From Alphaproteobacteria bacterium (GTDB lineage: Bacteria; Pseudomonadota; Alphaproteobacteria; UBA9655), in NCBI GenBank assembly GCA_019750035.1, contig JAIEOZ010000074.1, positions 37,543-101,542 on the forward strand: a stretch of DNA of 64,000 nt, in the 5' to 3' direction. This document shows positions 20,769-62,081 of this stretch, one piece after another. The translations under genes and the position numbers were made by a program. Every line of letters starts with the position of its first letter. Within the stretch, counting starts at the first letter, position 1. The notes beneath the pieces are model-generated. The model was given only the letters and a program-made list of their open reading frames with translations, made no database searches and was not told the origin of the DNA.

Positions 20769-20793
20769 TTTCTTTCCTTATTCTTCTTGTTTA

Positions 20794-20821
20794 CTTATAA
20801 CAAAATAAAATGAAATAGCAA
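20794..20821 (-). promoter_or_regulatory. promoter of the accessory-relaxase operon
   Basis: TTGCTA-N16-TATAAG, 25 nt before the ATG at 20768. Confidence 0.55.
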
Positions 20822-21028
20822 GAGTAACCTTGCTGAACCCTTAATAAACACGAGATAAGGTATTACCAGAACACGCAGTGTTCGATTAGTTCTTTATCTT
20901 ATTTTTCTAAGTAAAACAGTGAAAAAATAAACAAACAATCCAAAAAGTACACAAACAATCCTAATTAATCATTTTCAATCCAAATAAATCCTTAAACTTA
21001 CATTATTAAGTCTAAATAATCACAAATA
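20822..21028. other. candidate oriT
   Basis: Intergenic region upstream of the accessory-relaxase operon. Inverted repeat GAACAC-gca-GTGTTC at 20869-20883, flanked by GATAAGG/CTTTATC. ACAAACAATCC occurs twice, and further ATCC repeats are spaced at multiples of 10 bp (20931-21001). Confidence 0.45.
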
Positions 21029-21056
21029 TTGACTTTATCTGTTAATTTCGTAATAT
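21029..21056 (+). promoter_or_regulatory. sigma-70-type promoter
   Basis: TTGACT-N16 (ending TTTCG)-TAATAT. Confidence 0.55.
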
Positions 21057-21084
21057 AACAAATATGACTTTAAAGGAAATTAAA

Positions 21085-21363
21085 ATGAATGAAATTGAAT
21101 TACTGACTGAACAAAAGTTAAATGAATTATCTGAACTCATGGTTAAAAATAAGGCTTCTTCTAAATTAATGGATTCAATAAGAAGTAATATTAAAGTGTG
21201 GGATAAAAAACTGTATCCGTTGTGCAGGACTTTGGATTTGAACTTTATTGATGTTGTTGCTGAAATTTTGGGTCGTGGTGGTTTTGAAGTAGATAAATTA
21301 AAGTTGGCTACTTATTTGAGTCGTGCAAGAAAATCTAAAGGTGGAAGAAATGAACAAGAATGA
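21085..21363 (+). CDS. hypothetical protein, paralogue of the N-terminus of the next gene
   Basis: The track ORF starts at 21064. The promoter -10 at 21051-21056 favours the ATG at 21085, which has AAGGAAA upstream. Confidence 0.5.
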   Translation: MNEIELLTEQKLNELSELMVKNKASSKLMDSIRSNIKVWDKKLYPLCRTLDLNFIDVVAEILGRGGFEVDKLKLATYLSRARKSKGGRNEQE

Positions 21364-22117
21364 TTTGATTATTGGTTTATCAAATGAGTTCTTGATTGAA
21401 CTTGGTAAAACTAAACCTTCAAATCTTCAAAATGCTGTTAATAAACACTATGACTTGTGGAATAAGGATGGTGGATTGATTCAAATGCTGACTGAAAGAG
21501 ATTTGGGTGTGTACAAGGTGTTGGCTTCAATCCTTGTGTCTGGTGGGTATGAACATGCAAATGAAATGAATGTGGGTCGTTGTGTTCGCAGGTTACTTAA
21601 TACCCGTAATGACGACATATCTAGTTATGTAGATACACAAACAAAGGGTAATCCCTCCCTTGTTAAACCTGGTGGCGTTGTTCCAGGTTCAGCCGTTACT
21701 CTTATGACTGACAAGGTGGTTAAATCCCCTGTAGTGCAAGAGAAAAATGAAGGTGTAGGTTTGGTGGTGTACTCCCCTAGAAGTAGCACAGAGAACCATA
21801 CGAGCAGTGGTAGTGTTAGTGTTAGTTGGTGGGATGAAGTGGCTCAATCACTAGGTATAGAAATTAAAAAAGTTCCTGAAGGTTTCAATTGGAATAATGT
21901 TGATGCAAATCTCACATATCAGCGAGATAGAGAATATTCAAAAACTTATAATGAAAATGAATTGTTATTGTTTGGTCATGTTCTTTTCAATGCTAGAAAA
22001 GAAAAAATACCAATGTCCAATGTTTTTAAAGCAACAACTTTTATTATAAAAAGTCAAGGTGATATTGCTTATGAGTTAATGACTAAAGCAATGATGATTG
22101 AAACAATAACTGTCTAA
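21350..22117 (+). CDS. hypothetical protein
   Basis: Start moved to MNKNDLIIG, which is preceded by GGTGGA. The N-terminal ~75 aa align by eye with the preceding ORF. Confidence 0.55.
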   Translation: MNKNDLIIGLSNEFLIELGKTKPSNLQNAVNKHYDLWNKDGGLIQMLTERDLGVYKVLASILVSGGYEHANEMNVGRCVRRLLNTRNDDISSYVDTQTKGNPSLVKPGGVVPGSAVTLMTDKVVKSPVVQEKNEGVGLVVYSPRSSTENHTSSGSVSVSWWDEVAQSLGIEIKKVPEGFNWNNVDANLTYQRDREYSKTYNENELLLFGHVLFNARKEKIPMSNVFKATTFIIKSQGDIAYELMTKAMMIETITV

Positions 22118-22124
22118 TGAAAAA

Positions 22125-22138
22125 GCCCCTTTCGGGGC
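22125..22138. terminator. bidirectional intrinsic terminator
   Basis: GCCCC-tttc-GGGGC between convergent genes. Confidence 0.75.
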
Positions 22139-22145
22139 TTCTTCT

Positions 22146-22982
22146 TTACTCTGCACTAATTTGATTATCTACATATAGCTCAACAAGGTTTGCTGCATCA
22201 GCTTTATGCTTGTTAAGTAATCTTCTTATATTAGTTGCTCTGTCTTCCATAGAAGAAATTGCATCACCAAAGTTTGTTACTTCCAACATGTTCTTCATGT
22301 GGTTTTGGTCATCAAAAGAACCTTTTAAAACAACTTCCTTGAAATCAAATCTTTTATCTTTGTTCATTAGATTAATGAATTTATCTTGACCATATAAACC
22401 CATTGTTTTATCTAAAAGGGCTTCATCATTTTTCATGAAACCTTCATTAATAATGGAAACAACTCTGATTGGGTGTACTACTTCGTCTGCATCAACACCT
22501 TTAACCCAAGAATAAGCAACAGTGAATGTTCTTAAGCATTTGTCATTAGATACAGGAATTGATAGAACAAGGTCTGCTGTACTCAATTCATCAGAAAATG
22601 AAAGAAAGAAATCTTGAATGTCTTTTAATCCTGATACAGCTTCTTCAAATTTGTTTGCTCCAAGGTCAAAAACAACATAGTCAGCAGGAATATCAGAAGC
22701 ATTAATGATTAAAGTAGCTTCTTTAGCTAAGTTTAATTTTTTGCAACCAATGAATTCATTGTCATCAACAATATTTCCTTTTGAGTCTTTTGTTTGATAC
22801 TTTTTATAGTTGCTGTATTTGTTCTCAGGGTCTGCATCATAAAATGCAACCTTGTAACCACTAGCTCTTGCTTGAGATACGAATTTATCAGCGGAAGTTG
22901 ATTTGAGTACACCCCCTTCTATGCTGACAAAAAGCACTACCTTTTTTCTGTTTAATGTTTCATGTAATTTATATTTACTCAT
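22146..22982 (-). CDS. ParA/MinD-fold partition-like ATPase with a degenerate Walker A (StbB-like position)
   Basis: KKVVLFVSIEGGVLKSTSA..VAFYDADPEN. Start moved to 22982 (MSKYKL), with RBS AAGGAG. Follows an RHH gene after a 1-nt gap. Confidence 0.6.
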   Translation of the reverse strand: MSKYKLHETLNRKKVVLFVSIEGGVLKSTSADKFVSQARASGYKVAFYDADPENKYSNYKKYQTKDSKGNIVDDNEFIGCKKLNLAKEATLIINASDIPADYVVFDLGANKFEEAVSGLKDIQDFFLSFSDELSTADLVLSIPVSNDKCLRTFTVAYSWVKGVDADEVVHPIRVVSIINEGFMKNDEALLDKTMGLYGQDKFINLMNKDKRFDFKEVVLKGSFDDQNHMKNMLEVTNFGDAISSMEDRATNIRRLLNKHKADAANLVELYVDNQISAE

Positions 22983-22983
22983 T

Positions 22984-23160
22984 TTATTTTTCTCCTTTAG
23001 TTGTAGTAAATTTCTCGTGTTCATTTTTAACTGCTAATCTAATAGCTGCTGATTCACTCATATTGTATTCTTTAGAAAGTTTTGCAATCTGTTGATTGAA
23101 TACTTTATCTGAACGAATTAGCTTAACCTTTCTATTTTCTTTTTCTTCATCTTCATCCAT
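22984..23160 (-). CDS. ribbon-helix-helix (ParG/CopG-like) DNA-binding protein
   Basis: Own translation, 58 aa (too short for the track): MDEDEEKENRKVKLIRSDKVFNQQIAKLSKEYNMSESAAIRLAVKNEHEKFTTTKGEK. Beta-strand followed by a two-helix pattern. Confidence 0.55.
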   Translation of the reverse strand: MDEDEEKENRKVKLIRSDKVFNQQIAKLSKEYNMSESAAIRLAVKNEHEKFTTTKGEK

Positions 23161-23178
23161 ATTATTTTCTCCTTTACT

Positions 23179-23232: not shown

Positions 23233-23589
23233 TTAAGAATTAGCTCTTTTTGCTCCAAGAACATTGAAATAAAATGTTCTTTCTTTAAATACATAACCAA
23301 TCAAGCTATCAATATCAGCTTTTGTCATGTATTCAAAATCTTCTTCCATTTTCAAGATTTCATTTTTTGAATAACCATCTTCTTGCAAGTAGATTACATA
23401 TTCAAGCACTTCCATTCTTTCAATTCTTCCAATCATTGCTTCAAATTTTTCATTGATTGTTGGAGATAGAGATTTTGGTGTGTTCTCAATAATTTCTTTC
23501 TTTACAAGCTGAATGTTTTTTAAGCCTTCTAAAACTTCAGGTGCAAATTCTACTGTTTCTAAATATTGGTCTAAATTTAATGTGTTCAT
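23233..23589 (-). CDS. hypothetical protein
   Basis: 118-aa acidic ORF. Confidence 0.55.
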   Translation of the reverse strand: MNTLNLDQYLETVEFAPEVLEGLKNIQLVKKEIIENTPKSLSPTINEKFEAMIGRIERMEVLEYVIYLQEDGYSKNEILKMEEDFEYMTKADIDSLIGYVFKERTFYFNVLGAKRANS

Positions 23590-23790: not shown

Positions 23791-23824
23791 ATTATTGCAG
23801 GAATAATGCAAAACACAATAGCAA
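23791..23824 (-). promoter_or_regulatory. cassette promoter box
   Basis: Minus strand reads TTGCTATTGTGTTTTGCATTATT.., with -35 TTGTGT, N16, -10 AATAAT. TCGATATC at 23854-23861. Confidence 0.6.
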
Positions 23825-25492: not shown

Positions 25493-25526
25493 ATTTTAGT
25501 AAAAATAATGCAAAACACAATAGCAA
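25493..25526 (-). promoter_or_regulatory. cassette promoter box
   Basis: TTGCTATTGTGTTTTGCATTATTTTT. -35 TTGTGT, N16, -10 TAAAAT. TCGATATC at 25536-25543. Confidence 0.65.
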
Positions 25527-26049: not shown

Positions 26050-26083
26050 ATTTTAAGAAAAATAAAGCAAAACACAATAGAAA
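26050..26083 (-). promoter_or_regulatory. cassette promoter box
   Basis: Variant TTTCTATTGTGTTTTGCTTTATT. -10 TAAAAT. TCGATATC at 26092-26099. Confidence 0.6.
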
Positions 26084-37020: not shown

Positions 37021-37054
37021 AGTATAAGAAAAATAATGCAAAACACAATAACAA
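37021..37054 (-). promoter_or_regulatory. cassette promoter box (drives the lysozyme-like lipoprotein gene)
   Basis: TTGTTATTGTGTTTTGCATTATTTTT. -10 TATACT. Confidence 0.6.
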
Positions 37055-39728: not shown

Positions 39729-39762
39729 ATAATACGAAAAATAATGCAAAACACAATAGAGG
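39729..39762 (-). promoter_or_regulatory. cassette promoter box (drives 39702-to-37081)
   Basis: CTCTATTGTGTTTTGCATTATTTTTCG followed by -10 TATTAT. Confidence 0.6.
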
Positions 39763-43306: not shown

Positions 43307-43663
43307 CTATCTATCAAAACTAATTTTAGAAATCATTTCAATAAATTTATTTGTTGAATAAGGAAATCTATTGCCTGTTTCTTCTTCAATTGCAACAATA
43401 GAAACGAGTTTATCTTTTGAAACAATCCGTTTAATTTCTTTTGTTTTTTCACCAAAAAATCTTACCTGTTCAATCACATTAATAAATGAAGTGGTCAAAA
43501 GAGGTTTAGCACGATATTTTGAAATAATTAGTTCAAGTTCTCTTTTCTGACGCATTTCACCTGCACAATGTCTATATTTTGGTTCTTTAAAAAGCTCATT
43601 CAAACAAATAATTTCATTAATAAAACGAATTTGTTTATTCAGTGACTTGAGTTCATTATTCAT
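43307..43663 (-). CDS. hypothetical protein
   Basis: 118 aa. 4-nt overlap with the upstream gene. Confidence 0.5.
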   Translation of the reverse strand: MNNELKSLNKQIRFINEIICLNELFKEPKYRHCAGEMRQKRELELIISKYRAKPLLTTSFINVIEQVRFFGEKTKEIKRIVSKDKLVSIVAIEEETGNRFPYSTNKFIEMISKISFDR

Positions 43664-51324: not shown

Positions 51325-51329
51325 AAAAA

Positions 51330-52126: not shown

Positions 52127-54886
52127 ATGAGAAGAATACTTTTGTTTATGTCTATGATGTTGCTTGCTCAAACAGCATTTGCTTCACCATTAGGACTTGG
52201 AAACCTTTTTGAACCTGCTGCAAACGATGTGAGTATAAAAATACTTACTTCAATGTTTGGTGATTTGATTGGTTCAGGTGGTGTAGATTTATTGAGTGGT
52301 CCAATTAGTGTGCTTAATAAAGCAGTTTTAATAGTAGGTGGCATTTTGGCTACCTATACCCTATTAGCAGGAACAATAGGCACTGCACATGATGGTGAAG
52401 TCCTTGGAAAATCTTTTTCCAGTGTTTGGACTCCAATTAGATATGCTTTAGGAACAGCAATGATTATTCCCGTTTGGAATGGCTACTGCACTGTTCAACT
52501 ATTAATTGGTTGGTTAGTGATTCAATCAGTAGGAATGGCTGATGGTGTTTGGAATGCTTTTACTTCAACTTCAAACATGGCAAAAATGGTTGTAGTTGGT
52601 TACAACGCACCTGACTTAAAAAATGCTGCCTGGAACACATTCCAAAGCTTTACTTGTGTAGAAGGTTACAAAGCTGCTCTTGGTCCTGCTGATGAAGTAT
52701 TGGTTGGAAAAAATGCAGGTTCTAACATGGGTATCACTACAGAAGAAACTACAGACAATCTTATTTATAGTTTTGGCGACAAAACAGGTGCTTTATTTGA
52801 TAAAGATATTTGTGGAACTGTGACTGTTCCAAAATTAAAAGCTCCAACAATTACAACTTCAAAAACTTTTGACCAAGCTTTAGAAATTGATTTTTCTGCT
52901 GCACCTGCTTTAACTGCACAAATTCAAACAGTTCAGAAAGCACAAGTGGCTAAATTATTTACATCATTAAATGCTGAAGCTGTGAAAGTTATTTCTACTA
53001 ATGCAGCAATTGACCCATCAGGTGTGAATTTAGTCATTAAGTCTTATCAACAAGCATTGTCCGATGCTGCTCAATCTGCTGTAGCTTCAATTGACGGTTT
53101 AAGCACATTACAAAAGAATGCTCAAAAAGGTGGTTGGATTTCTCAGTTCTATTACTTCATGCAGTATTCATACTTATATGACAATATTTCTACTGCTCTT
53201 TCTTCTACACCTTCAGCAACAGGACCAGTGAATGCAGGTAATGGAAAATATTCTGATGATTTTTCTAAATACATTAAACCAATTGCTGACACTGTAACTC
53301 GTGGTGGTGGAACATTAGTTTTTGGTGGTTCTTCAGACCAAGCTGATTCTAAAACTTCTGATGAAAAAGGATTCTTCAGTAAAGTAAAAGAAATGTGGAA
53401 TAAATTCAAAGCTGAAGAAGTAGCAAAAAGAATCTTCATGGGTGCTGAATCTCACTTCCAAGCTAGTCCAGGTGAACACCCTGTCTATACGATGAAAAGA
53501 CTTGGTGACAACTTAGTAGCTGTTTCTTCAGGTGCTTTGGTTGCAGGTGGTGGATTAATGTTCACATTGGGTGCTCATCCCGGAATATCAGCATTTGTTC
53601 AAACTTTAATGATGATTGTTCTTGTTCCAATGTTAGTAACAGGCTTCATGTTGAAATATTTCCTTCCATTCATGCCTTTCTTATTAGGTGTTGGTGTGAT
53701 TGCAGGTTGGTTAATGGGTGTTGCTATTGCAATTATTGCTGCTCCTTTATGGGTTGTAGGTCATTTAAACCCTCATGCAGATGATATGGTTGGTTCTTCA
53801 GGACAAGGCTATAGATTAGTTTTAAGTATGACATTAAGACCTTCTTTAATCACAATAGGTATGTGTGTTGTGTTTGCAGGAATTATTGTAGTAGGTGGAT
53901 TTATTAATGAAACATTCTTACTTGCTTTCAATCTTGCTCAATCAGGTTCAGGAATATTTGGTTGGTTAATGGCTATTCTTGCTGCTCCATTACTTTACTT
54001 TGTTACTATGTTTAAGTTCATTCAAAGCATGTTCCAATACATTCATAAAATTGCTGATGAAGTTCTTGAATTCATTGGTGGTGGTGGTCATTCAGTTGGT
54101 GGAACTGCTGATGCAATGGCTGACCATTCTTCACATAATGCAGGTGCTGCTGCTGCCGGTGGTGCTGCTGGAAGTCTTTTATCTAATATGAGAGGTCGTA
54201 ATGGCGGTGGTGGTGACGGTGGTGGTGCTAAATCTCCAGAAATTTCAAGTGGTAAAGGTGATAGCAAACCATCATTAATGGACAAAGTTCTTTCAAGAGA
54301 AAAACAAAATCCTGGTATGTCTGACAGTCAAAATAAAGTGAATTCTTTGGCGACAAATGGCATATTAAAAGACACTCAAGAAAATCACATGATGAAATCA
54401 GAATACGGTTCTATGATGAAATCTGTTGGTGGTGAAGATAGTAAATTAGGTCAAAGATTTGCTGAAACAATGAAAAGTAATGCTTCTAAATCTGAATTTT
54501 CAAATCAATCTCCTTCTGAAATCATGCAAGCTTCTATGGGTTCGGTTCTTGAAGGTTCTTATGGTAAAAATGCACTTGAAGCAATTAAAGAACATACAGG
54601 TGGAGAAATGTCAGGTGATAAATTTGACTTTGCAATGTCTGAAATGACTACTGCAAAAGACAATATTTTTAATAATGCAGATTTGTCTAATGATGAAAAA
54701 AGAAAAACATTTTCTGATTCTTCTCGTTCATTGAAAAATGACTTGAAAGAAAATTCAAAAGGATTGGCAGAAGGAACAGTAACTGCTCAACAGTTATTTA
54801 CAAAAAATCTTGGTGAATTTACAGGTAAAACAATGCCAGAAAATCCAAAAACACCAACTGAACCTGCTCCACAAATTAACGGTTAA
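52127..54886 (+). CDS. dotA: DotA/TraY-family type IVB secretion membrane protein
   Basis: 919 aa. Signal peptide. The block DVSIKILTSMFGDLIG...GEVLGKSFSSVWTPIRYALGTAMIIPVWNGYCTVQ..GMADGVWN matches the DotA/TraY N-terminal signature as I remember it. About 6 TM helices around residues 470-620. Gly-rich tail. Confidence 0.75.
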   Translation: MRRILLFMSMMLLAQTAFASPLGLGNLFEPAANDVSIKILTSMFGDLIGSGGVDLLSGPISVLNKAVLIVGGILATYTLLAGTIGTAHDGEVLGKSFSSVWTPIRYALGTAMIIPVWNGYCTVQLLIGWLVIQSVGMADGVWNAFTSTSNMAKMVVVGYNAPDLKNAAWNTFQSFTCVEGYKAALGPADEVLVGKNAGSNMGITTEETTDNLIYSFGDKTGALFDKDICGTVTVPKLKAPTITTSKTFDQALEIDFSAAPALTAQIQTVQKAQVAKLFTSLNAEAVKVISTNAAIDPSGVNLVIKSYQQALSDAAQSAVASIDGLSTLQKNAQKGGWISQFYYFMQYSYLYDNISTALSSTPSATGPVNAGNGKYSDDFSKYIKPIADTVTRGGGTLVFGGSSDQADSKTSDEKGFFSKVKEMWNKFKAEEVAKRIFMGAESHFQASPGEHPVYTMKRLGDNLVAVSSGALVAGGGLMFTLGAHPGISAFVQTLMMIVLVPMLVTGFMLKYFLPFMPFLLGVGVIAGWLMGVAIAIIAAPLWVVGHLNPHADDMVGSSGQGYRLVLSMTLRPSLITIGMCVVFAGIIVVGGFINETFLLAFNLAQSGSGIFGWLMAILAAPLLYFVTMFKFIQSMFQYIHKIADEVLEFIGGGGHSVGGTADAMADHSSHNAGAAAAGGAAGSLLSNMRGRNGGGGDGGGAKSPEISSGKGDSKPSLMDKVLSREKQNPGMSDSQNKVNSLATNGILKDTQENHMMKSEYGSMMKSVGGEDSKLGQRFAETMKSNASKSEFSNQSPSEIMQASMGSVLEGSYGKNALEAIKEHTGGEMSGDKFDFAMSEMTTAKDNIFNNADLSNDEKRKTFSDSSRSLKNDLKENSKGLAEGTVTAQQLFTKNLGEFTGKTMPENPKTPTEPAPQING

Positions 54887-55319: not shown

Positions 55320-57935
55320 TTATGACAACATAGTTTCAAATGCTTCTTCAAACTCTGGCATACGTTCTGTGCTGTTATAAAATGGAAGACCCCAAACAAT
55401 GTATTTCTTGTTTGAAAAAAGCTGTTCAACTTCAAAATGGTCCTTAATGGATATAAGGAACTTTTCTTTCCACTCATCAGCCTTCAAAAGATGTGTGCCT
55501 TTTGGTTCAACAAAAACTTGGTAATGCATTGTGTCTGTTTTTTCCTTACCAATCATGTAAAGAATAAAATCAGGTTCAAAAGGTCTTCCATCTTCAAAAG
55601 CATAAATTTTGAAATGTTTTTCATTCCGAATTAAATATGCTTCTGAATACATTTTTGAAAGCTCCTTGTATCTCTTATCAATATATTGAATAAGAAGCTT
55701 TTCTTCAGAAGTGCCAAAACAGTCATCAAAAGCAAACCATGCTCTTGTAGTCAAATCCAAATGATATGCTGTTTCAATTGCATTATTCATGGATTTTCCA
55801 AACTCCTTATCTTCACCATCATCGAGCATAAAATTCAAACTCTTATCGGTGAAAACTTCACGAATCATTCGTGGTGAAAACTTTTTACTACCCTTGTATT
55901 CAAGTTTATCAGAAGCAATTACACTACTGATTTCATTGAGTACCTGTATTGTTGCATCAAGCATTTCTTCAGGTTTGAGATTGTTGACCTGGTCTGCCAA
56001 TCCTGTGATTTCAACCTTCACTTTTCCAAGATAATTATCAGATATTATGAATTCTTGGATGGATTTCAAATTAGGTAAATATTTTTTCAAAGAAGAAAAT
56101 TCATAAAATTCAATTCGTTGAATAGCCTTCCTAACAATGGCAGTTCCAAAGTCTTTTATAATGAAATCTTTACCTTCTTTATTAGCTCCCTTGTCATTAT
56201 TTTGAGTATCAAAGGCAACTACACTTTTTGTGTATCCAGTTCTCAAAGAAACACGGTGAGTTTGGCTGATGATGCTACTTTCAAGCCCTTTAATTTCTTC
56301 CCTTGTGTACTTCAATCTGTCATTTAAAAATAAATGACCTGCCTTGTATAAAGCAGTTTCCTTGAAACTATTTTTCAGGTTGACTTTCCGTTCCTTAGTT
56401 TCCTTTGCCTTCATACCGATTTCTTGAAGTGCAGTATTTAGCTCTTGGATGTACTTTGGATTGTAAGCACTGTGATAGTAAAGTTCTTCACAGATTCGCA
56501 TTTCATTATCTAGGTCAGAATCAAATTTCCGTCCAAACAATGGTTGGTCATTAGCTGTTTGAAATGGGCAATAGCGAGCGCCACGACCAATCAACTGTGC
56601 TTCACTCATCGTTGTTTTTCCTATTTTTCCACCCTTACTATCACGAGTGTCATATAGGCGAACGATGTCAAAAAGATTGAGAACATCCCAACCTTCATTC
56701 AGTTTATCAACTGCAAACACTACCCTGTACTCATTACTTTCTAATGAGTTGACTGCAAGTTGTTTTGCATCAGAATCTTCTTTACTATTAACTGAAATTA
56801 ATTTTTCTTCAGAAAAATCTTCTTTCAATTCAATAATAAGATTCTCAAGTGTAATATTGTTTTTTTCTAGATAATTAAATACAGTAAGAATTGTTTCTTC
56901 ACTGCTTCTGATTTTGATTGCTTCCAATGTTTCAGGTTTCAGTGCCTTGATACATGCCTTGAACTCATCAAAAAAAGCTTGACTATCTTTGATAGTTTTA
57001 GATTTAAGTAAGATAACAGGCTTGATATGCAACTTGTTTTTTTCAAAAATCTTTCTTCTGTATTGACTTAAAAGAACTGCTTGAATTGCTCTATCAATTG
57101 GTGACAAGTCTGCTTGTAATACCTTCACTTCCTTTGAATAACCATCTTTTCTAAATTCTTTTAGTGGATAGTCAAAGATAAGTTTTGGCTTATATTTTTC
57201 ATTGAGATTTTCATCACTGAAATCAACAGTTGCAGTGAACTCAAGCAAAACATTAGAAGGATTTGCACGAAAAATTCTTTCAACTGTTCCTTCCCAAGAA
57301 ATAACTTCAAAAAGCTCATCTTGGTCTACTGCTTTACCTTTTTTGGTATCTGCATTTATGTGGTGTGCTTCATCTGAAATAAGAACAATCTTCTGGTCTT
57401 CAAAATCATCATAAGTTAGACTGTTTTCTCTTGGAACATTCAAAGCCATGTGCAAACCTTGAATGGTAGAAAATACTATATTAATATCATCAGGATTAAC
57501 ACTCTGAAAATTATCAACTTCACGAATAGCAACTCTTTTATCACCAAAGCTTATTGTTTCAGAAAATAAATATTTTCTTGAAAATGAATTCAAAAAATTA
57601 TCTCTTGTTTTCTCAATGATGTTGCTATTATTAACAAAGAACAAAAAGTTCCTGTATCCCTTTTCATAGAGATATGCAATTAAACCTGCCATCATTAAAG
57701 TCTTACCACTGCCTGTTGCCATGTGGAAGAGAAGTTGATGGTTTTGCCGTGGTTTTCCGTCAAATGCTTCTTGCCAATAATTCAGAAAGAACTTAAAAGC
57801 TCGTTCCTGATATGGTCGCATTGGGAAATTAGGGTTCAGATTACCAATGATTGAATCTGGTAACTTGGTTGCTTCAATCGTTCTTTTTCCAAGTTCTTCA
57901 ATAAGAATTTGAAATAAAGTTTTTGTATCAGCCAT
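55320..57935 (-). CDS. res: type III restriction enzyme, Res subunit
   Basis: 871 aa. SF2 motifs MATGSGKT, SDEAHH, FTAT and QLIGRGAR. C-terminal PD-(D/E)xK-like EPDF...VEPKG. Confidence 0.88.
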   Translation of the reverse strand: MADTKTLFQILIEELGKRTIEATKLPDSIIGNLNPNFPMRPYQERAFKFFLNYWQEAFDGKPRQNHQLLFHMATGSGKTLMMAGLIAYLYEKGYRNFLFFVNNSNIIEKTRDNFLNSFSRKYLFSETISFGDKRVAIREVDNFQSVNPDDINIVFSTIQGLHMALNVPRENSLTYDDFEDQKIVLISDEAHHINADTKKGKAVDQDELFEVISWEGTVERIFRANPSNVLLEFTATVDFSDENLNEKYKPKLIFDYPLKEFRKDGYSKEVKVLQADLSPIDRAIQAVLLSQYRRKIFEKNKLHIKPVILLKSKTIKDSQAFFDEFKACIKALKPETLEAIKIRSSEETILTVFNYLEKNNITLENLIIELKEDFSEEKLISVNSKEDSDAKQLAVNSLESNEYRVVFAVDKLNEGWDVLNLFDIVRLYDTRDSKGGKIGKTTMSEAQLIGRGARYCPFQTANDQPLFGRKFDSDLDNEMRICEELYYHSAYNPKYIQELNTALQEIGMKAKETKERKVNLKNSFKETALYKAGHLFLNDRLKYTREEIKGLESSIISQTHRVSLRTGYTKSVVAFDTQNNDKGANKEGKDFIIKDFGTAIVRKAIQRIEFYEFSSLKKYLPNLKSIQEFIISDNYLGKVKVEITGLADQVNNLKPEEMLDATIQVLNEISSVIASDKLEYKGSKKFSPRMIREVFTDKSLNFMLDDGEDKEFGKSMNNAIETAYHLDLTTRAWFAFDDCFGTSEEKLLIQYIDKRYKELSKMYSEAYLIRNEKHFKIYAFEDGRPFEPDFILYMIGKEKTDTMHYQVFVEPKGTHLLKADEWKEKFLISIKDHFEVEQLFSNKKYIVWGLPFYNSTERMPEFEEAFETMLS

Positions 57936-57938
57936 TCT

Positions 57939-59789
57939 TTATCCTTGACCAAAGAATTTTTTATTTAATGCTTTATCAGCATCAGAAATGGAATATGTCA
58001 CATCATCAATCTCTGATAATGGAACATAAAGCATGTTCTTATCAAGAGTTTCAATAAGAAACTTTCTTTGGTCTTCAAGGCTGAGTTCTACAAAATCACT
58101 TTTTGATTCATCAAATAACTTTGGATTAACACGATAAGAAAGAAATGCCTTGTTTTGCATTTCATTCCAAATATTTAAAAGCACTTCTGATGTTTTGGCT
58201 GATTGAATCAAATCAACAAAAACTTGATTTGCTCTAGCAAGTTCACAGTAAATAAATTCACCACCACCTATCCAATTGACAGCCTTACTAATTCCATATT
58301 GTTCACCCTTAACAACTTCAGCAAGTCTTGGACATGTAATTTCATTAATATAATCTAATTGTTCAACACCTACCCATTTACGATTTAATTTATGTGCAGT
58401 TGCTAATGTTGAACCTGAACCTGAAAAGAAGTCCATAACCCAATCACCTTCATCTGAAGCCAAACGAATAACTTCAGCAAGGTACTTTTCATTCTTTGCA
58501 GTCTTAAATCCGTGGTCACTGTTTGCAATTGGAACACCACTCCAAACAGTATCCCCAATTCTTCTTTCTGCTGGTGCTCTCCAATATTGTGGTTTCCCAT
58601 CATCAGATTTACGAATGAAAGAAAGTGCTTCACCTGTATCTCTCCAATATTCAGCAAGAGTTCTTCCACCACCTTCTTCTTGAAACCGTTCATAGTTAGC
58701 TATAGCTTGAAGTGCTCTTTCTTCACCCCATACCCATTGACCTTTATCAATTTTTGTTCCAAGAAGTTCATATTGCATGGTCTTTCTTTCTTCTGTACTC
58801 CATGCATGATGCCAATGTCCTTCAACATTTCCAAGGTCATGTTTATCTACCCAATAAGGTTTAAAACTAACTTCAGGATTTTTGGTGTACCAAAACAATG
58901 TGTCATGTCTAACTTGTAGCTTCTTGATTGTTTTAAATTGTTTCTGAAGTCCTTTAACAGCACGACCTGGAAGAATGATTTCATTTCTAAAATTCTCTCT
59001 TCCATAAATTTCATCTAACAACATTTTTATAGGATGATTGTTGTCATGGTCAATATGAACAAAAATAGAACCATCGGTTGCAAGCAATAATTTTGCAACT
59101 TCAAGCCTGTTTTTCAGGAATGTGAACCATGTTGATTGTGTGAATGTGTCGTTATATTGAAAGCTATCATTATCAGTGTTAAATGGTGGGTCAATAAATA
59201 TGACCTTGAACCTGCCTTGATGTGTCTTCAACAAAGTATGAAGAGCAAGTAGGTTATTCCCTTTTATCAATAAATTATCTTGAGAAGAAACTGATGTAGG
59301 AATAGTTTCACCATCCTTGGTGAATTTCTTCCAATTATAAAAAGCTTTAGGTGCAAGTAATCTATCAATTTGGTCAGGTGCAAGAACTTCATTCCAAAAC
59401 ACTTCATCCCTTTTAGCTTCAGCCCTATCTTGTCCACCTTCAAGAATACAATCCTTGTACGGCCAAGCAAGCACAACTTCTTTAGAGTCGTTCAAATACT
59501 CATCATCTGCAACAAGTCCAATCTTGTTTTTGAAAGCTGTGAAACTGTCAGGTAAGAATTTTTTATTACTGACAAATTTTTGAAATTTAATTTTATCAAA
59601 AACCGTAACACTTTCTACTTCAACAAAAAAATGCTTTCGCAATGATTTATTTTTTAATAAATGAGAAATAAGAAGTGGGTCAAGGTTTAAGGCAAGTTCA
59701 ACAACTTTATTTTTCATCAACTTACCTTCAGAAACCAAACGGTCATCTACTGAAAGTAAATCTATGAGTTCTTGGAATAGGTTTTGCAT
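57939..59789 (-). CDS. mod: type III R-M methyltransferase, Mod subunit
   Basis: 616 aa. Motif IV FIDPPFNT comes before motif I DFFSGSGST (beta-class order). 3-nt gap to res. Confidence 0.88.
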   Translation of the reverse strand: MQNLFQELIDLLSVDDRLVSEGKLMKNKVVELALNLDPLLISHLLKNKSLRKHFFVEVESVTVFDKIKFQKFVSNKKFLPDSFTAFKNKIGLVADDEYLNDSKEVVLAWPYKDCILEGGQDRAEAKRDEVFWNEVLAPDQIDRLLAPKAFYNWKKFTKDGETIPTSVSSQDNLLIKGNNLLALHTLLKTHQGRFKVIFIDPPFNTDNDSFQYNDTFTQSTWFTFLKNRLEVAKLLLATDGSIFVHIDHDNNHPIKMLLDEIYGRENFRNEIILPGRAVKGLQKQFKTIKKLQVRHDTLFWYTKNPEVSFKPYWVDKHDLGNVEGHWHHAWSTEERKTMQYELLGTKIDKGQWVWGEERALQAIANYERFQEEGGGRTLAEYWRDTGEALSFIRKSDDGKPQYWRAPAERRIGDTVWSGVPIANSDHGFKTAKNEKYLAEVIRLASDEGDWVMDFFSGSGSTLATAHKLNRKWVGVEQLDYINEITCPRLAEVVKGEQYGISKAVNWIGGGEFIYCELARANQVFVDLIQSAKTSEVLLNIWNEMQNKAFLSYRVNPKLFDESKSDFVELSLEDQRKFLIETLDKNMLYVPLSEIDDVTYSISDADKALNKKFFGQG

Positions 59790-60008: not shown

Positions 60009-60019
60009 TTTCAAGTGCT

Positions 60020-60835: not shown

Positions 60836-60864
60836 ACTATAGATGGGTGCTAGTAGTGCGTCAA
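60836..60864 (-). promoter_or_regulatory. near-consensus promoter of the 245-aa gene
   Basis: TTGACG-N17-TATAGT, with a leader of about 78 nt. Confidence 0.6.
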
Positions 60865-61016
60865 CAACTTTTGAAGAAATAAATTATCTTTTTTATGCGT
60901 TGCGCTAATCATACATCACAATTCCACAATGTAGAAATGAAACAGTGCTTTATATAAGTTAAAACTATAAGAAATGCTTTTCATTAGAAAAAACTTATCT
61001 TAGGAAGTTGTTCTTT

Positions 61017-61196
61017 TACCTGGTCTTCACCTGGAACGCCCTAGTAAACAACCACACCTTCTAAAAAACGACCTTCAGAAACATACCTAGAAGCTCTTGA
61101 AACCACCTTGCCTATAGTAACAGTGCTTGAAGCTACTCTATGCTGTTATAGAGCCTATAAATCAATCTTACTGACGATTGTTCAACATTTAAGCAG
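61017..61196 (+). repeat. structured repeat, copy 3 (more diverged)
   Basis: ACCTGG-N6-ACCTGGAAC, then AAAAAACGACCTTCAGAAACATACCTAGAAGCTC, GTGCTTGAAG, inner hairpin CTCTAT-N6-ATAGAG, and ..TTTAAGCAG. Confidence 0.65.
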
Positions 61197-61252
61197 ATAG
61201 ACAACCAACAACCACAAACAAAAAATGCTTCATATAGAAGCATGGTCTTTAA

Positions 61253-61299
61253 ATATCCTTCAAATGCCAAACAGAAAAAAAGCCACTGAATAGTGGCTT
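61253..61299. repeat. 47-bp perfect direct repeat, copy 2
   Basis: Identical to 35312-35358, 25.9 kb away. Confidence 0.9.
61282..61297 (-). terminator. terminator inside 47-bp repeat copy 2
   Basis: GCCACT-gaat-AGTGGC followed by T7 on the minus strand, after 61329-61724. Confidence 0.7.
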
Positions 61300-61328
61300 A
61301 TATATTTTTGTTTTTATTATTAATTTAT

Positions 61329-61724
61329 TTAACTCAATAAATCTTCTTTAATTGCCTTCATAAATGGGTGAAGTGTTTTATCACTTTCCTTTCTCAGTCT
61401 GCCTAACTGAGTGGCAACCTTTTTAATATATTCAGCAACAGACAAAGTTTGATAAATTGGAATAATGTCTTTAAGTGAACGAATGCAATAAACGACATTA
61501 TATAAATTTAACTTATTATCTTTTTCTTGCTGACTCAAATGAACAGCACAGGAAATAAGGACAGTTTTGAAAACAAGATTTTCAACTTCTGGAAATTTTT
61601 CTTTATGAGATTTAATGAAATCAGTAAGATATTTTTCATCCAAATCAAGATTGTTTTCATGAAGTCTTTTAACAGACTCACTATTTTGAAATGATTTTGC
61701 AATATCAAGAAAAACTTCATTCAT
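61329..61724 (-). CDS. hypothetical protein
   Basis: 131 aa. Confidence 0.5.
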   Translation of the reverse strand: MNEVFLDIAKSFQNSESVKRLHENNLDLDEKYLTDFIKSHKEKFPEVENLVFKTVLISCAVHLSQQEKDNKLNLYNVVYCIRSLKDIIPIYQTLSVAEYIKKVATQLGRLRKESDKTLHPFMKAIKEDLLS

Positions 61725-61749
61725 AAAAAATTACCAAAAAACTTTTAAA

Positions 61750-62016
61750 TTAATTATTTTCAGCCAAATACTTTTTCATATCACTTACAACAACATTATA
61801 TTCTTCTTGTTTTTCTTCAATACTGAAAGGAAATAATTCTTTGGCATCTGTCAACCTTTTTATTGACCTAGCCAAATTTCCTTCAAACTTTAGAAATAAT
61901 TTGAACCTTTGCTCAATTTCTTGCAGTCTAATTTTTGCTTCAGACTCTTCATTCTTTAACCTATCCATCATTGTAGACCGTTCGTCAATGAGAATGTATT
62001 TGTAATCTTCACTCAT
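61750..62016 (-). CDS. hypothetical coiled-coil protein
   Basis: 88 aa. First island gene after the tRNA terminator. Confidence 0.5.
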   Translation of the reverse strand: MSEDYKYILIDERSTMMDRLKNEESEAKIRLQEIEQRFKLFLKFEGNLARSIKRLTDAKELFPFSIEEKQEEYNVVVSDMKKYLAENN

Positions 62017-62050
62017 ATTTTTCTTTCAAAAAGAACGGAAACAACAAAAA

Positions 62051-62072
62051 AAGCCACTCCGAAGAATGGCTT
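62051..62072 (-). terminator. terminator of the tRNA gene
   Basis: AAGCCA-N10-TGGCTT followed by T7 on the minus strand, 10 nt after the tRNA 3' end. Confidence 0.6.
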
Positions 62073-62081
62073 TTGAAAATT

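What the first reader, a model, noticed from the sequence alone, without database searches (positions are those of the whole stretch)
20769..62081. Leading-region architecture: about 40 kb of genes almost uniformly oriented toward the candidate oriT
The relaxase operon is transcribed away from the 20.8-21.0 kb intergenic region.

On the other side, roughly 50 of about 60 ORFs up to the tRNA are on the minus strand, so they are transcribed toward that region. If nicking occurs there and the plus strand is transferred 5' to 3', these genes use the incoming strand as template. That is the arrangement known for leading-region genes in F-like and IncI plasmids.

The content fits an establishment or anti-defence role:
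- an RHH/ParA-like pair next to oriT, as with stbA-stbB in R388;
- an HsdM-like pseudo-methylase;
- a primase-helicase;
- many tiny acidic orphans;
- a tRNA-like RNA;
- hairpin repeats.
No ssb, psiB or ardA homologue was recognised, so the repertoire may be largely undescribed.
Basis: inference. Interest (0 to 1): 0.68.

Follow-up and report, generated by a model that had tools for sequence, protein, structure and literature searches.

The report
Leading region of a rare ICE
This is the DNA that a rare, AT-rich chromosomal conjugative element should inject first into a new host, and it consists of about a dozen short gene cassettes with nearly identical promoters, almost all encoding proteins of unknown function.

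Summary
Between the relaxase operon and the tRNA, 49 of 58 ORFs lie on the minus strand. The bias is element-wide, though: the relaxase/T4SS side is 18 of 20.

The candidate oriT is well supported. A 13-nt sequence (20882-20894) is identical and single-copy in all 11 related loci fetched, even where relaxases share only 38% identity. A short hairpin with compensatory changes precedes it on the + strand. By the TrwC/R388 model the + strand is nicked and 20.9 kb onward enters first, so minus-strand genes use the incoming strand as template.

New here: 11 same-orientation copies of a conserved sigma-70-type promoter/operator (chance expectation 0.11) sit 39-50 nt upstream of start codons between 23.8 and 50.9 kb. 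Each unit ends in an intrinsic terminator (the "hairpin repeats"). Relatives carry lineage-specific versions. This resembles the IncN CUP/ArdK regulon.

No known anti-defence, ssb or psiB gene was found, and no Frpo-like single-strand promoter. The only known anti-restriction homologue (ArdC) lies outside the region on the other strand. The distal third holds a DotA/TraY T4SS gene and a type III R-M system.

Verdict: a real leading region of a known kind, in an undescribed ICE family. The functions remain unproven.

The parts
20869..20883 (+). oriT hairpin (GAACAC-GCA-GTGTTC) on the presumed transferred strand, directly 5' of the invariant nic-region sequence
   Evidence: The stem is kept through compensatory changes in relatives: GACCGT/GCGGTC, GACAC/GTGTC, GAAACC/GGTTTC.
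20882..20894 (+). Invariant 13-mer TCGATTAGTTCTT, the presumed relaxase recognition and nic region. By analogy with R388, nic is expected about 9 nt after the hairpin, near 20892/20893.
   Evidence: Exact and single-copy in all 11 related loci, always about 450 nt upstream of the relaxase gene. Relaxase identity in these loci goes down to 38%.
20922..20993 (.). Array of 3-4 direct repeats (GGATTG core read on the minus strand) with a 20-bp period, between nic and the divergent StbA-like gene
   Evidence: Every relative has an array with a 20-21-bp period at the same place but with a different sequence.
21085..21363 (+). StbA-like 92-aa helical DNA-binding protein, divergent from the relaxase operon (the ORF can be read from 21064)
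   Evidence: Conserved in all relatives. AF2 pLDDT 81. The best PDB fold match is the R388 StbA DNA-binding domain 7pc1 (prob 0.75, E 0.69, not significant). The profile search against PDB sequences also lists 7pc1 (E 0.56).
21323..22117 (+). Conserved protein of about 255 aa, co-transcribed with the StbA-like gene. No family match.
22146..23024 (-). ParA/StbB-like ATPase with Walker A motif GGVLKST, convergent with the StbA-like pair
   Evidence: Pfam CbiA E 3e-6, above the cut-off. Sequence. Conserved in relatives.
23233..23589 (-). Conserved acidic 118-aa protein (pI 4.6), function unknown
   Evidence: Present in all relatives. No family, PDB sequence or fold match.
23806..23824 (-). Promoter/operator copy 1, upstream of the 40-aa / 118-aa / ParA-like unit
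25508..25526 (-). Promoter/operator copy 2, upstream of the five small genes at 25465-23982
26065..26083 (-). Promoter/operator copy 3, upstream of the acidic 140-aa gene
28134..28152 (-). Promoter/operator copy 4
29308..29326 (-). Promoter/operator copy 5, upstream of the 351-aa membrane protein
30377..30395 (-). Promoter/operator copy 6
31841..31859 (-). Promoter/operator copy 7
32914..33022 (-). tRNA-like, Y-RNA-like (YrlA-like) non-coding RNA cassette. A variant promoter copy near 33044 precedes it and the terminator at 32877-32915 follows it.
   Evidence: Rfam RF02553, 48.1 bits (gathering score 69), E 2.5e-9. Fold z-score -4.45. Absent at the equivalent place in the Aquitalea relative.
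34006..34024 (-). Promoter/operator copy 8
37036..37054 (-). Promoter/operator copy 9, upstream of the 407-aa lipoprotein
39744..39762 (-). Promoter/operator copy 10, upstream of the 63-aa / 151-aa / 676-aa unit
41257..43008 (-). P4-family primase-helicase (DUF5906 plus a winged helix), inside a long operon that lacks the promoter motif (47409-40473)
   Evidence: Pfam DUF5906 E 1.8e-14. TIGR01613 E 2.7e-33.
43660..44496 (-). Short HsdM-like protein with the SAM-binding motif but no catalytic NPPY/F motif
   Evidence: Pfam N6_Mtase E 3e-10. TIGR00497 partial match. Sequence. Homologue in Klebsiella plasmid pINF019_3.
50829..50847 (-). Promoter/operator copy 11, upstream of the 50785-48865 unit
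52127..54886 (+). DotA/TraY-family T4SS membrane protein, lying inside the supposed leading region on the opposite strand
   Evidence: TIGR04346 E 1.4e-109. Nine predicted TM segments. 28% identity to plasmid DotA/TraY proteins.
55320..59789 (-). Type III restriction-modification system (res 55320-57935, mod 57939-59789), a cargo defence system
   Evidence: Pfam ResIII E 1e-33, N6_N4_Mtase E 1.5e-36, TypeIII_RM_meth E 4.6e-23.
62082..62158 (-). tRNA with CAT anticodon at the island boundary, downstream of rpoD. A partial 5'-half copy lies at 62270-62311.
   Evidence: ARAGORN, Rfam, sequence, self-BLAST. rpoD at 62514-63983. GC rises from 0.33 to 0.45.
16545..20768 (-). Relaxase operon: a 107-aa accessory protein and a 1296-aa MOBF (TrwC-type) relaxase-helicase
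   Evidence: Pfam TrwC, AAA_30, SH3_13. Invariant Y19 and H286-x-D-x-R...P-x-x-H297-x-H299.
319..1602 (+). ArdC-like anti-restriction homologue. It lies outside the leading side and on the strand that is not T-strand-templated.
   Evidence: Pfam ArdcN E 1.6e-8 and MPTase-PolyVal E 6e-28.

Best explanation
The window is most of an AT-rich (about 31% GC) integrative conjugative element. It is inserted next to a CAT-anticodon tRNA downstream of rpoD. It belongs to a rare, undescribed family found mainly in Betaproteobacteria.

Its MOBF relaxase most likely nicks the + strand a few nucleotides after the hairpin at 20869-20883, within or just beyond the invariant TCGATTAGTTCTT. The DNA from about 20.9 kb upward would then enter the recipient first.

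The first 30 kb of that side is built as a regulon. It starts with an StbA-like/ParA-like module next to oriT. At least 11-13 short transcription units follow, each starting with a nearly identical promoter and most ending in a strong intrinsic terminator. The promoter layout is: GATATCGA box, 8-11 nt in most copies, TTGCTA-TTGTGT(-35)-TTTGCATTATTTTTNN-TAnnnT(-10), about 25 nt, Shine-Dalgarno, ATG.

I infer that these are double-strand sigma-70 promoters sharing one element-encoded regulator that binds the invariant -35/spacer block. They would fire together in a naive recipient once the complementary strand is made (zygotic induction, or transcriptional overshoot) and then be shut off. This is the behaviour described for the ArdK/CUP regulon of IncN plasmids and the R388 establishment network.

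The orientation toward oriT makes the incoming strand the template, and it is co-directional with complementary-strand synthesis. Nothing found here shows transcription from single-stranded DNA.

The products (about 35 small, mostly cytoplasmic orphans, a tRNA-like RNA, and a catalytically incomplete HsdM-like protein) are candidate establishment or anti-defence factors. Their functions are not shown.

Shown by computation: element type, relaxase motifs, the invariant nic-region with its covarying hairpin, strand counts, promoter copies and terminators, and conservation in relatives.
Inferred: which strand is transferred, the exact nic position, the common regulator, the timing of expression, and the function of the products.
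For: - Element and boundary: GC 0.27-0.36 across 1-62 kb against 0.45 in the rpoD flank. tRNA. rpoD.
- Relaxase: TrwC plus RecD-like helicase domains. Invariant tyrosine and histidine-triad motif across 10 homologues.
- T4CP at 10905-13352. DotA/TraY.
- oriT: the 13-mer is exact and single-copy in all 11 loci and unique in the window. The hairpin lies 5' of it on the + strand with compensatory changes. This matches the TrwC nic-site layout of hairpin, about 9 nt of invariant single strand, then the cleavage site (PMC4176350).
- Direct-repeat arrays between nic and the StbA-like gene in every relative, as with the stbDRs of R388 (PMC3098194).
- Orientation: 49 minus to 9 plus. Relatives give 17/3, 6/2, 16/3, 10/2, 16/5, 16/2 and 7/1 in the first 10 kb.
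- Promoter copies: 11 hits, all in one orientation, against 0.11 expected. They sit 39-50 nt from the start codon in 8 of the 11 copies; two more fit after start-codon re-annotation, and copy 1 (23806) precedes a short uncalled ORF. The -10 is TAnnnT in 10 of 11 copies.
- nhmmer finds 5 more copies in L005 and 7 in L001, all in the sense orientation. Lineage-specific versions occur in L004, L006 and L007.
- Terminators: 25 found against 7.1 +/- 2.7 expected.
- Cassette mosaicism between the window, L005 and L001.
- Five of the seven plus-strand genes beyond the StbA-like pair are predicted envelope proteins (two lipoproteins, an OMP, a TM protein and DotA), which are not expected early cytoplasmic factors.
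- Precedents: T-strand orientation of leading-region genes (PMC11541004) and the CUP/ArdK regulon (PMC6289460).
Against: - The strand bias is the same on the T4SS side (18/2; Fisher p 0.72). Orientation alone does not single out this region.
- No homologue of any known anti-defence, SOS-inhibition or ssb family was found in 21-62 kb.
- The only known anti-restriction homologue (ArdC) is outside the region and on the + strand.
- No regulator has been identified. The oriT repeats do not covary with the promoter box: L001 has the same promoter box as the window but different oriT repeats. The StbA-like protein is therefore probably not the regulator.
- No integrase was found in the window, so the ends and mobility of the element are unverified.
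- The distal 15 kb contains T4SS and R-M genes. One promoter-like variant lies on the T4SS side near 14716.
- Nothing here measures expression or transfer.
Confidence: 0.58

Rival explanations
1. The co-orientation is simply how this element family is built. Nearly every gene, T4SS genes included, points the same way. The 22-51 kb cassettes are accessory, maintenance or cargo genes driven by copies of a strong constitutive promoter, with no special role early after transfer.
For: - The bias is the same on both sides of oriT.
- No known establishment or anti-defence family was detected.
- Envelope proteins, a replication-type primase-helicase, a T4SS gene and an R-M system all lie in the region.
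- Cassette content varies between close relatives, as accessory genes do.
Against: - A 26-nt block spanning the -35 and the spacer is conserved far beyond what RNA polymerase needs.
- That block diverges in concert between lineages. This argues for a dedicated regulator rather than constitutive promoters.
- All 11 copies lie on the leading side, within 3-30 kb of nic.
- The arrangement is the one documented for leading regions (PMC11541004) and for the IncN CUP regulon (PMC6289460).
Confidence: 0.27
2. This is the mechanism the first reader implied. The minus-strand genes are transcribed directly from the incoming single strand, before complementary-strand synthesis, from Frpo/ssi-like hairpin promoters as in F and IncI plasmids.
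For: - The orientation is right for this: the T-strand is the template.
- The mechanism is known (PMC11541004).
Against: - A sliding 200-nt single-strand DNA fold of the whole window shows no long imperfect duplex on the + strand in the leading side. The most stable windows are the GC-richer host flank and terminators.
- Per-intergenic folding gives modest z-scores, explained by terminator hairpins.
- The one outlier (59790-60019, z -8.5, -6.9 on refolding) is a string of short independent hairpins 39 kb from nic.
- The repeated promoters have their -35 and -10 on one linear stretch with no complementary partner. They need double-stranded DNA.
Confidence: 0.08
3. The island is a decayed or composite, no longer self-transmissible element, for example a tandem accretion at the tRNA. 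In that case 'leading region' has no current functional meaning.
For: - No integrase in the 64-kb window.
- A truncated tRNA copy at 62270-62311 and a 47-nt perfect internal direct repeat at 35312/61253 hint at past rearrangements.
- Most T4SS proteins are unrecognisable to Pfam and NCBIfam.
Against: - The long ORFs are intact. Relaxase catalytic motifs are invariant. T4CP and DotA/TraY are full length.
- Synteny around oriT is kept in nine independent loci from different genera.
- A 96%-identical copy exists in another sample, which implies recent spread.
- Promoter copies on both sides of the internal repeat are of the same family.
- The window ends inside the element, so the integrase may lie beyond position 1.
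Confidence: 0.07

Closest known systems
Leading regions of F-like and IncI plasmids, and the 'anti-defence islands' of Samuel et al. 2024 (PMC11541004)
   Same: - It lies on the side of oriT opposite the relaxase operon.
- Genes are oriented so that the transferred strand is the template.
- It holds many small genes, an orphan methyltransferase-like gene, and an adjacent partition-like module.
   Different: - No ssb, psiB, ardA, anti-CRISPR or other known anti-defence family.
- No Frpo/ssi-like single-strand promoter.
- The element is chromosomal (an ICE).
- The same orientation extends over the T4SS side.
- The distal part holds T4SS and R-M genes.
CUP (conserved upstream) / ArdK regulon of the IncN plasmid pKM101/R46 leading region (Delver & Belogurov 1997, as cited in PMC6289460)
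   Same: Several copies of one conserved upstream sequence carrying a promoter and a regulator site. Each precedes a gene or small operon in the leading region of a MOBF-type conjugative element.
   Different: - No ArdK, ArdA or ArdB homologue was detected.
- Sequence similarity to the CUP sequence was not tested.
- More copies here (11-13 in the window).
- Each lineage of the family has its own version.
- The regulator is unidentified.
R388 (IncW) oriT-stbABC module and its establishment network (PMC3098194, PMC3937220, PMC4176350)
   Same: - MOBF relaxase-helicase.
- nic-region made of a hairpin followed by an invariant single-stranded stretch.
- A small helical DNA-binding protein gene divergent from the relaxase operon, with a direct-repeat array between it and nic.
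- A ParA-like ATPase nearby.
- Establishment genes controlled through repeated operator motifs.
   Different: - The StbA similarity is not statistically significant (Foldseek E 0.69, HMM E 0.56).
- The repeat period is 20-21 bp, not 11 bp.
- The ParA-like gene is in a separate, convergent operon.
- The relaxase N-terminal domain has no tblastn match (E <= 1e-5) among 72,556 plasmids.
- The T4SS includes a DotA/TraY protein, whereas R388's T4SS is, from my own knowledge, VirB-like.
YrlA / bacterial Y-RNA-like RNAs (Rfam RF02553)
   Same: A closing stem enclosing a tRNA-like module with T-arm and D-arm sequences. Strongly structured (z -4.45).
   Different: - The score is 48 bits, below the gathering score of 69.
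- The Ro-binding stem is not matched.
- No Rsr/Ro60 (TROVE) gene was found in the window.
- It sits in a conjugative-element cassette behind the regulon promoter.
- It is absent from the Aquitalea relative.

Membership tests
Conjugative leading region (F/IncI type; Samuel et al. 2024) | Lies immediately 3' of nic on the transferred strand, on the side of oriT away from the relaxase gene | tested here: met
   An invariant 13-mer with a covarying hairpin 5' of it on the + strand. The relaxase operon is on the other side. Polarity is inferred from the TrwC model (PMC4176350) and was not measured.
Conjugative leading region (F/IncI type; Samuel et al. 2024) | Genes oriented so that the T-strand is the template | tested here: met
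   49 of 58 ORFs, and the same pattern in seven relatives. The T4SS side shows the same bias (18/2).
Conjugative leading region (F/IncI type; Samuel et al. 2024) | Enrichment in known anti-defence, SOS-inhibitor, ssb, methyltransferase or toxin-antitoxin genes | tested here: not met
   Pfam, NCBIfam, PHROGs and PDB searches find only a truncated HsdM-like protein. ArdC and Phd/ParE lie on the other side of oriT. No dedicated anti-defence HMM set was available.
Conjugative leading region (F/IncI type; Samuel et al. 2024) | Frpo/ssi-type single-strand promoters | tested here: not met
   No long imperfect hairpin carrying -35 and -10 boxes on the + strand. Sequence comparison with known Frpo elements could not be run.
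Conjugative leading region (F/IncI type; Samuel et al. 2024) | Early expression in the recipient | not testable with these tools
   Needs time-resolved RNA-seq or reporter assays in matings.
MOBF (TrwC/TraI-type) relaxase and oriT | N-terminal HUH relaxase domain with catalytic tyrosine(s) and a histidine triad | tested here: met
   Pfam TrwC at 34 bits, above the cut-off of 25. Y19 invariant and Y16 nearly so. H286-x-D288-x-R290...P294-x-x-H297-x-H299 invariant in 10 homologues.
MOBF (TrwC/TraI-type) relaxase and oriT | C-terminal RecD-like helicase domain | tested here: met
   AAA_30 E 4e-29, AAA_19, SH3_13. tblastn matches to the TraA helicase parts.
MOBF (TrwC/TraI-type) relaxase and oriT | nic-site made of an inverted repeat followed by a conserved single-stranded stretch on the nicked strand | tested here: met
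   Cleavage itself was not tested.
StbA-StbB module of R388 | StbA-type helix-turn-helix DNA-binding domain | tested here: inconclusive
   7pc1 is the top Foldseek hit (prob 0.75, TM 0.46/0.56, E 0.69). It is also listed by the PDB profile search (E 0.56). Neither result is significant.
StbA-StbB module of R388 | Array of direct repeats between the gene and nic | tested here: met
   3-4 repeats with a 20-21-bp period in all nine lineages, each with its own sequence. R388 has 9-bp repeats every 11 bp (PMC3098194).
StbA-StbB module of R388 | stbA and the ParA-like stbB in one operon | tested here: not met
   The StbA-like gene (+) is followed by an unrelated protein of about 255 aa. The ParA-like gene is on the minus strand in a separate, convergent unit.
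IncN CUP/ArdK regulon | Multiple copies of a conserved upstream promoter/operator element in the leading region | tested here: met
   11 copies against 0.11 expected, at a near-fixed distance (39-50 nt) from start codons.
IncN CUP/ArdK regulon | ArdK/ArdR regulator and ArdA/ArdB targets | tested here: not met
   No Pfam or NCBIfam match of that kind on any scanned ORF.
Integrative conjugative element | Chromosomal insertion at a tRNA, with compositional contrast | tested here: met
   Relatives sit in contigs or chromosomes of 0.4-4.2 Mb.
Integrative conjugative element | Integrase/recombinase and att repeats | tested here: not met
   None found in the 64-kb window, and no repeat of the tRNA 3' end. 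The element runs off the left end of the window, so the integrase may lie beyond it.
YrlA (Rfam RF02553) | Score at or above the Rfam gathering threshold | tested here: not met
   48.1 bits against a threshold of 69, E 2.5e-9. Only the tRNA-like module aligns well.

The most novel reading that the evidence does not exclude
The 11-13 promoter-terminator cassettes could form a dedicated, repressor-gated 'entry programme' encoding an essentially undescribed set of establishment and anti-defence factors. That set would include an orphan tRNA-like Y-RNA-type decoy and a catalytically dead HsdM-like protein. The near-identical promoter and terminator repeats could double as recombination points for swapping cassettes between elements, an integron-like platform without an integrase. 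The family would then be a compact natural library of new counter-defence genes from an AT-rich ICE lineage that invades GC-rich Betaproteobacteria.
Probability: 0.25. Interest if true: 0.75.

Novelty: new member of a known kind. Interest (0 to 1): 0.5.

Why it matters
Leading regions are now known to be where conjugative elements keep the genes that defeat recipient defences. So far they have been studied mostly in enterobacterial plasmids.

This example comes from a very rare ICE family: 10 relaxase relatives among 5.8 billion proteins. It has a sharply defined nic-region and a cleanly modular, single-promoter regulon. About 84% of its genes match nothing known.

If the cassettes are early establishment genes, each one is a small, separately testable candidate for a new counter-defence or host-takeover function. 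The invariant promoter box gives a direct handle for finding the regulator.

If they are not, the case is a useful warning. Orientation toward oriT can be an element-wide trait, and on its own it should not be read as evidence of transcription from the T-strand.

Tried and rejected
- Megablast of 50 kb of the window against 72,556 plasmids: no match.
- tblastn of the relaxase against plasmids: only the helicase half matches Ti-type TraA, at 26% identity.
- Exact search for the promoter box in GTDB genomes and JGI metagenomes: no hit.
- Rfam at gathering thresholds: only the tRNA.
- Pfam, NCBIfam and PHROGs on almost all ORFs: 49 of 58 leading-side ORFs have no family.
- PDB sequence searches for seven orphans or profiles: nothing significant.
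- AF2 plus Foldseek for the conserved 118-aa acidic protein: no match.
- Frpo-like single-strand promoters: rejected after whole-window and per-intergenic single-strand DNA folding.
- The idea that the StbA-like protein regulates the promoter boxes: rejected. The window's oriT repeats share an ATTGT core with its promoter box. However, L001 keeps the promoter box with different oriT repeats, and L006 shows no shared core.
- The idea that the 47-nt perfect repeat (35312/61253) bounds an inserted foreign element: rejected. The same promoter family occurs inside and outside it.
- The conserved GC-richer non-coding element (15793-15951 and 31932-32091): tested for RNA structure, with no covariation support. 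It is left unexplained.
- Host identity and the element's left end and integrase could not be determined.

Full report
**What the window is**

Positions 1 to about 62,080 are uniformly AT-rich (GC 0.27-0.36). The last 2 kb rise to GC 0.45 and encode the C-terminal 489 residues of a sigma-70 protein with its non-essential region (rpoD). A tRNA with a CAT anticodon (62082-62158, minus strand) sits at the junction.

The AT-rich part encodes:
- a 1296-aa TrwC-type (MOBF) relaxase fused to a RecD-like helicase (16545-20435, minus);
- a type IV coupling protein (10905-13352);
- a further 787-aa ATPase;
- a DotA/TraY-family T4SS protein (52127-54886, plus; TIGR04346, E 1.4e-109).

It is therefore a chromosomally integrated conjugative element (ICE). 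No integrase was found in the window. The element runs off the left end, so its full extent is unknown.

**The observation**

With a curated ORF list, the stretch from the StbA-like gene to the tRNA has 49 minus-strand and 9 plus-strand ORFs (binomial p = 9e-8). That is 28.6 kb against 6.9 kb of coding sequence.

The relaxase/T4SS side is just as biased, at 18 to 2. A Fisher test between the two sides gives p = 0.72. The orientation is a property of the whole element and does not by itself single out this side.

Two of the nine plus-strand genes are the StbA-like pair. Five of the other seven are predicted envelope proteins: two lipoproteins, an outer-membrane beta-barrel, a small TM protein and DotA/TraY.

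**Is the intergenic region the oriT, and which way does transfer go?**

The relaxase family is very rare. Only 10 proteins with E <= 1e-10 were found among 5.8 billion. I fetched loci around nine independent relatives:
- Aquitalea pelogenes;
- Cupriavidus sp. H19C3;
- Methylophilus rhizosphaerae;
- a Methylophilaceae MAG;
- a 'Dadabacteria' MAG;
- four metagenome or SRA contigs.

Aligning the regions upstream of the relaxase operon showed one block that never changes. The 13-mer AAGAACTAATCGA (relaxase-sense strand) is exact and single-copy in all 11 loci held. It always lies about 450 nt upstream of the relaxase gene, although relaxase identity falls to 38%. In the window it occurs once, at 20882-20894.

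Read on the window's + strand it is TCGATTAGTTCTT. A short hairpin directly precedes it, and its stem is kept through compensatory changes:
- GAACAC/GTGTTC in the window;
- GACCGT/GCGGTC in L004;
- GACAC/GTGTC in L008 and L009;
- GAAACC/GGTTTC in L007.

This is the anatomy of the TrwC/R388 nic site. There, a hairpin is followed by about 9 nt of invariant single strand and then the cleavage site, all on the strand that is nicked and transferred 5' to 3' (PMC4176350).

By that model the + strand is the T-strand and nic lies near 20892/20893. The DNA from 20.9 kb upward would enter first, and minus-strand genes would have the incoming strand as template.

**The module next to oriT**

Between nic and the first plus-strand gene lie 3-4 direct repeats with a 20-bp period (GGATTG core; 20922-20993). 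Every relative has an array with a 20-21-bp period at the same place, each with its own sequence.

The adjacent 92-aa protein is conserved throughout the family. It models as four helices (pLDDT 81). Its best structural match in the whole PDB is the DNA-binding domain of R388 StbA, entry 7pc1 (prob 0.75, TM 0.46/0.56, E 0.69). A profile search of PDB sequences also lists 7pc1 (E 0.56).

Neither score is significant. Together with the position and the repeat array, they make 'StbA-like' a reasonable working label (compare PMC3098194). The fold is helical, not ribbon-helix-helix.

The ParA-like ATPase (22146-23024; CbiA, E 3e-6) is not in the same operon. It is convergent, in a minus-strand unit together with a conserved acidic 118-aa protein. 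That protein has no family, PDB or fold match.

**The main new finding: a multi-copy promoter/operator**

Repeat analysis showed a 70-95-nt unit recurring upstream of minus-strand genes. Its core (+ strand ATGCAAAACACAATAGCAA) occurs 11 times with at most 3 mismatches. All copies are in one orientation and all lie between 23.8 and 50.9 kb. Chance expectation is 0.11.

In gene sense, the unit reads as follows:
- an RGATATCGA box;
- 8-11 nt in most copies (longer in copies 1 and 10, absent in two);
- TTGCTA-TTGTGT-TTTGCATTATTTTTNN-TAnnnT;
- about 25 nt, then a Shine-Dalgarno sequence and ATG.

The core sits 39-50 nt from the start codon in 8 of the 11 copies. Two more fit once the start codon is re-annotated, and copy 1 (23806) precedes a short uncalled ORF.

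Taking TTGTGT as the -35 with a 16-nt spacer gives a TAnnnT -10 in 10 of 11 copies. These are ordinary double-strand sigma-70-type promoters. Their -35 and spacer are conserved far beyond what RNA polymerase needs, which is the signature of a shared operator.

Most units end in a strong intrinsic terminator: GGACTC-N4-GAGTCC, GCCCC-TTTC-GGGGC or GCCACT-N-AGTGGC stems flanked by A and T runs. There are 25 terminator-like sites in 22-41.5 kb against 7.1 +/- 2.7 expected.

A profile of the 11 copies finds 5 more in the 96%-identical relative L005 and 7 in Aquitalea. All are in the sense orientation on the leading side. More distant relatives carry their own versions at the same kind of place:
- L004: GTGTCAATTTTGTTGACTATTACTTTGCATTT;
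- Cupriavidus: CCTATTGATTTTAGATTTTATTTTCTTATACT;
- Methylophilus: TTTGCTATTGACTATTGA.

Cassette content differs between the window, L005 and L001, and some differences are bounded by promoter copies.

The closest precedent is the CUP (conserved upstream) / ArdK regulon of the IncN pKM101 leading region (PMC6289460). Another is the repeated operator motifs of the R388 establishment region (PMC3098194, PMC3937220).

**What the cassettes encode**

Of 58 leading-side ORFs, only nine have a family assignment:
- the ParA-like protein;
- a glycine-zipper lipoprotein;
- an OMP beta-barrel;
- a DUF4379 zinc finger;
- the P4-type primase-helicase;
- the HsdM-like protein;
- DotA/TraY;
- type III Res;
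- type III Mod.

PHROGs, PDB sequence searches and one further structure prediction added nothing.

The HsdM-like protein keeps the SAM-binding motif DPCGCGAG but ends without an NPPY/F motif. A homologue lies in Klebsiella plasmid pINF019_3, which also has DotA/TraY and ArdC-like genes.

The tRNA-like RNA (32914-33022, minus) matches Rfam YrlA at 48 bits, below the gathering score of 69 (E 2.5e-9). It folds with z = -4.45. It lies between a variant promoter copy and a terminator. It is missing from the equivalent place in Aquitalea, so it is an accessory cassette.

'Many tiny acidic orphans' is only half right. 28 of 59 ORFs are under 130 aa, but only 4 of those have pI below 5.

No ssb, psiB or ardA homologue is present. 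The only known anti-restriction homologue, ArdC-like, is at 319-1602 on the + strand. It would be transferred late, and it is in the orientation that is not T-strand-templated.

**Single-strand promoters**

F and IncI leading genes are expressed early from Frpo/ssi hairpin promoters on the T-strand (PMC11541004). I folded the whole window as single-stranded DNA in 200-nt windows, and every leading-side intergenic region with shuffled controls.

The most stable windows are the GC-richer host flank and the terminators. The one strong outlier (59790-60019, z -8.5, -6.9 on refolding) is a chain of short, separate hairpins 39 kb from nic. Nothing resembles a long imperfect duplex carrying -35 and -10 boxes.

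Early transcription from single-stranded DNA is therefore not supported, though a novel type cannot be excluded.

**Heterogeneity of the 40 kb**

- The promoter cassettes occupy 23.8-39.8 kb, with one more at 50.8 kb.
- 40.5-47.4 kb is one long operon without the motif. It contains the primase-helicase and the HsdM-like gene and looks like a replication/maintenance module.
- 52-60 kb holds DotA/TraY (plus strand) and a type III R-M system.

'Leading region' in the functional sense fits the first 20-30 kb better than the whole interval.

**Conclusion**

The region is best described as the leading region of a new ICE family. It is organised as a repeated-promoter regulon of the CUP/ArdK kind and filled with unknown genes.

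The establishment or anti-defence role is a reasonable hypothesis, but no homology and no expression data support it. The strand bias alone is not evidence for it.

I rate it a new member of a known kind, of moderate interest. Its main value is as a compact, well-delimited source of testable candidate genes.

Noticed in passing
window 32914-33022 (-): A Y-RNA-like, tRNA-like non-coding RNA. It matches Rfam YrlA at 48 bits, below the gathering score of 69 (E 2.5e-9), and folds with z = -4.45. A variant promoter copy precedes it and a terminator follows. No Ro60/Rsr gene was found in the window. It is absent at the syntenic place in the Aquitalea relative (L013).
   Followed up: partly
window 15793-15951 (+) and 31932-32091 (-); also L001 14350-14647, L005 11424-11720, L013 3355-3545: A conserved, GC-richer non-coding element of about 150-190 nt occurs twice in the element in inverted orientation. 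One copy is upstream of the Phd/ParE operon. The other is downstream of a conserved 65-aa gene in the leading region. RNAalifold gives no covariation support. It may be a DNA site, for example a priming or single-strand initiation signal. Unexplained.
   Followed up: partly
window 62270-62311 (-): A truncated 5' half of a second CAT-anticodon tRNA, 88% identical to the intact one. It breaks right after the anticodon loop. An AT-rich spacer of about 110 nt separates it from the intact tRNA. It suggests an earlier integration or rearrangement at this site and leaves the exact island boundary uncertain.
   Followed up: partly
window 35312-35358 and 61253-61299: A 47-nt perfect direct repeat (55 nt at 96%) that includes a terminator hairpin, 25.9 kb apart. 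The same promoter family occurs inside and outside the interval, so it is probably not the boundary of a foreign insertion.
   Followed up: partly
L001/L013 (Aquitalea pelogenes), L006 (Cupriavidus sp. H19C3), L007 (Methylophilus): The element family stays at 30-38% GC in hosts that, from my own knowledge, are GC-rich (Cupriavidus and Aquitalea, roughly 60% or more). That is an unusually large compositional gap for a chromosomal element.
   Followed up: no
window 1632-16359 and 52127-54886: Apart from the coupling protein, a 787-aa ATPase and DotA/TraY, no T4SS component is recognised by Pfam or NCBIfam. The pairing of a MOBF relaxase with a DotA/TraY (type IVB-like) protein is unusual. The mating-pair apparatus may be a divergent or undescribed type.
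   Followed up: partly
window 203-259, 7933-7989, 23158-23214: A second repeated promoter-like element (TTG-N-TATATATATAAG, an extended -10 type) lies upstream of three minus-strand units: a gene cut off by the left end of the window, a T4SS operon, and the ParA-like operon. It suggests a second co-regulated set.
   Followed up: no
window 15129-15748 (-): A Phd/YefM-ParE toxin-antitoxin pair sits between the relaxase and the coupling-protein operons. It is conserved in L001 and L005 but absent from L003 and L004.
   Followed up: partly
window 32631-32888 (+); L013 2596-2850 (-): A small opposite-strand gene with a weak RepB-RCR_reg match (E 0.0015 in the window; a precomputed Pfam hit in the Aquitalea homologue). 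It is conserved in position and orientation, and is one of the few conserved genes that run against the general direction.
   Followed up: partly
window 20300-20250 (relaxase residues 39-60): The window's relaxase carries a 15-residue tandem duplication (NAADLMNEA.PNIKYD) relative to the 96%-identical homologue P0001.
   Followed up: no
window 29954-30053 and 30881-30978: A 100-nt stretch is 95% identical in two places. It covers the upstream region and 5' end of two neighbouring genes (29395-29958 and 30460-30885), which points to a recent local duplication or recombination between cassettes.
   Followed up: no
L012 (Klebsiella pneumoniae plasmid pINF019_3, NZ_CP083799.1): A 34-kb plasmid shares three protein families with the element, at 28-31% identity: DotA/TraY, a short HsdM-like 'N-6 DNA methylase', and an ArdC-like metallopeptidase. 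It also has a primase-helicase and a ParA. It may be a distant plasmid counterpart.
   Followed up: partly
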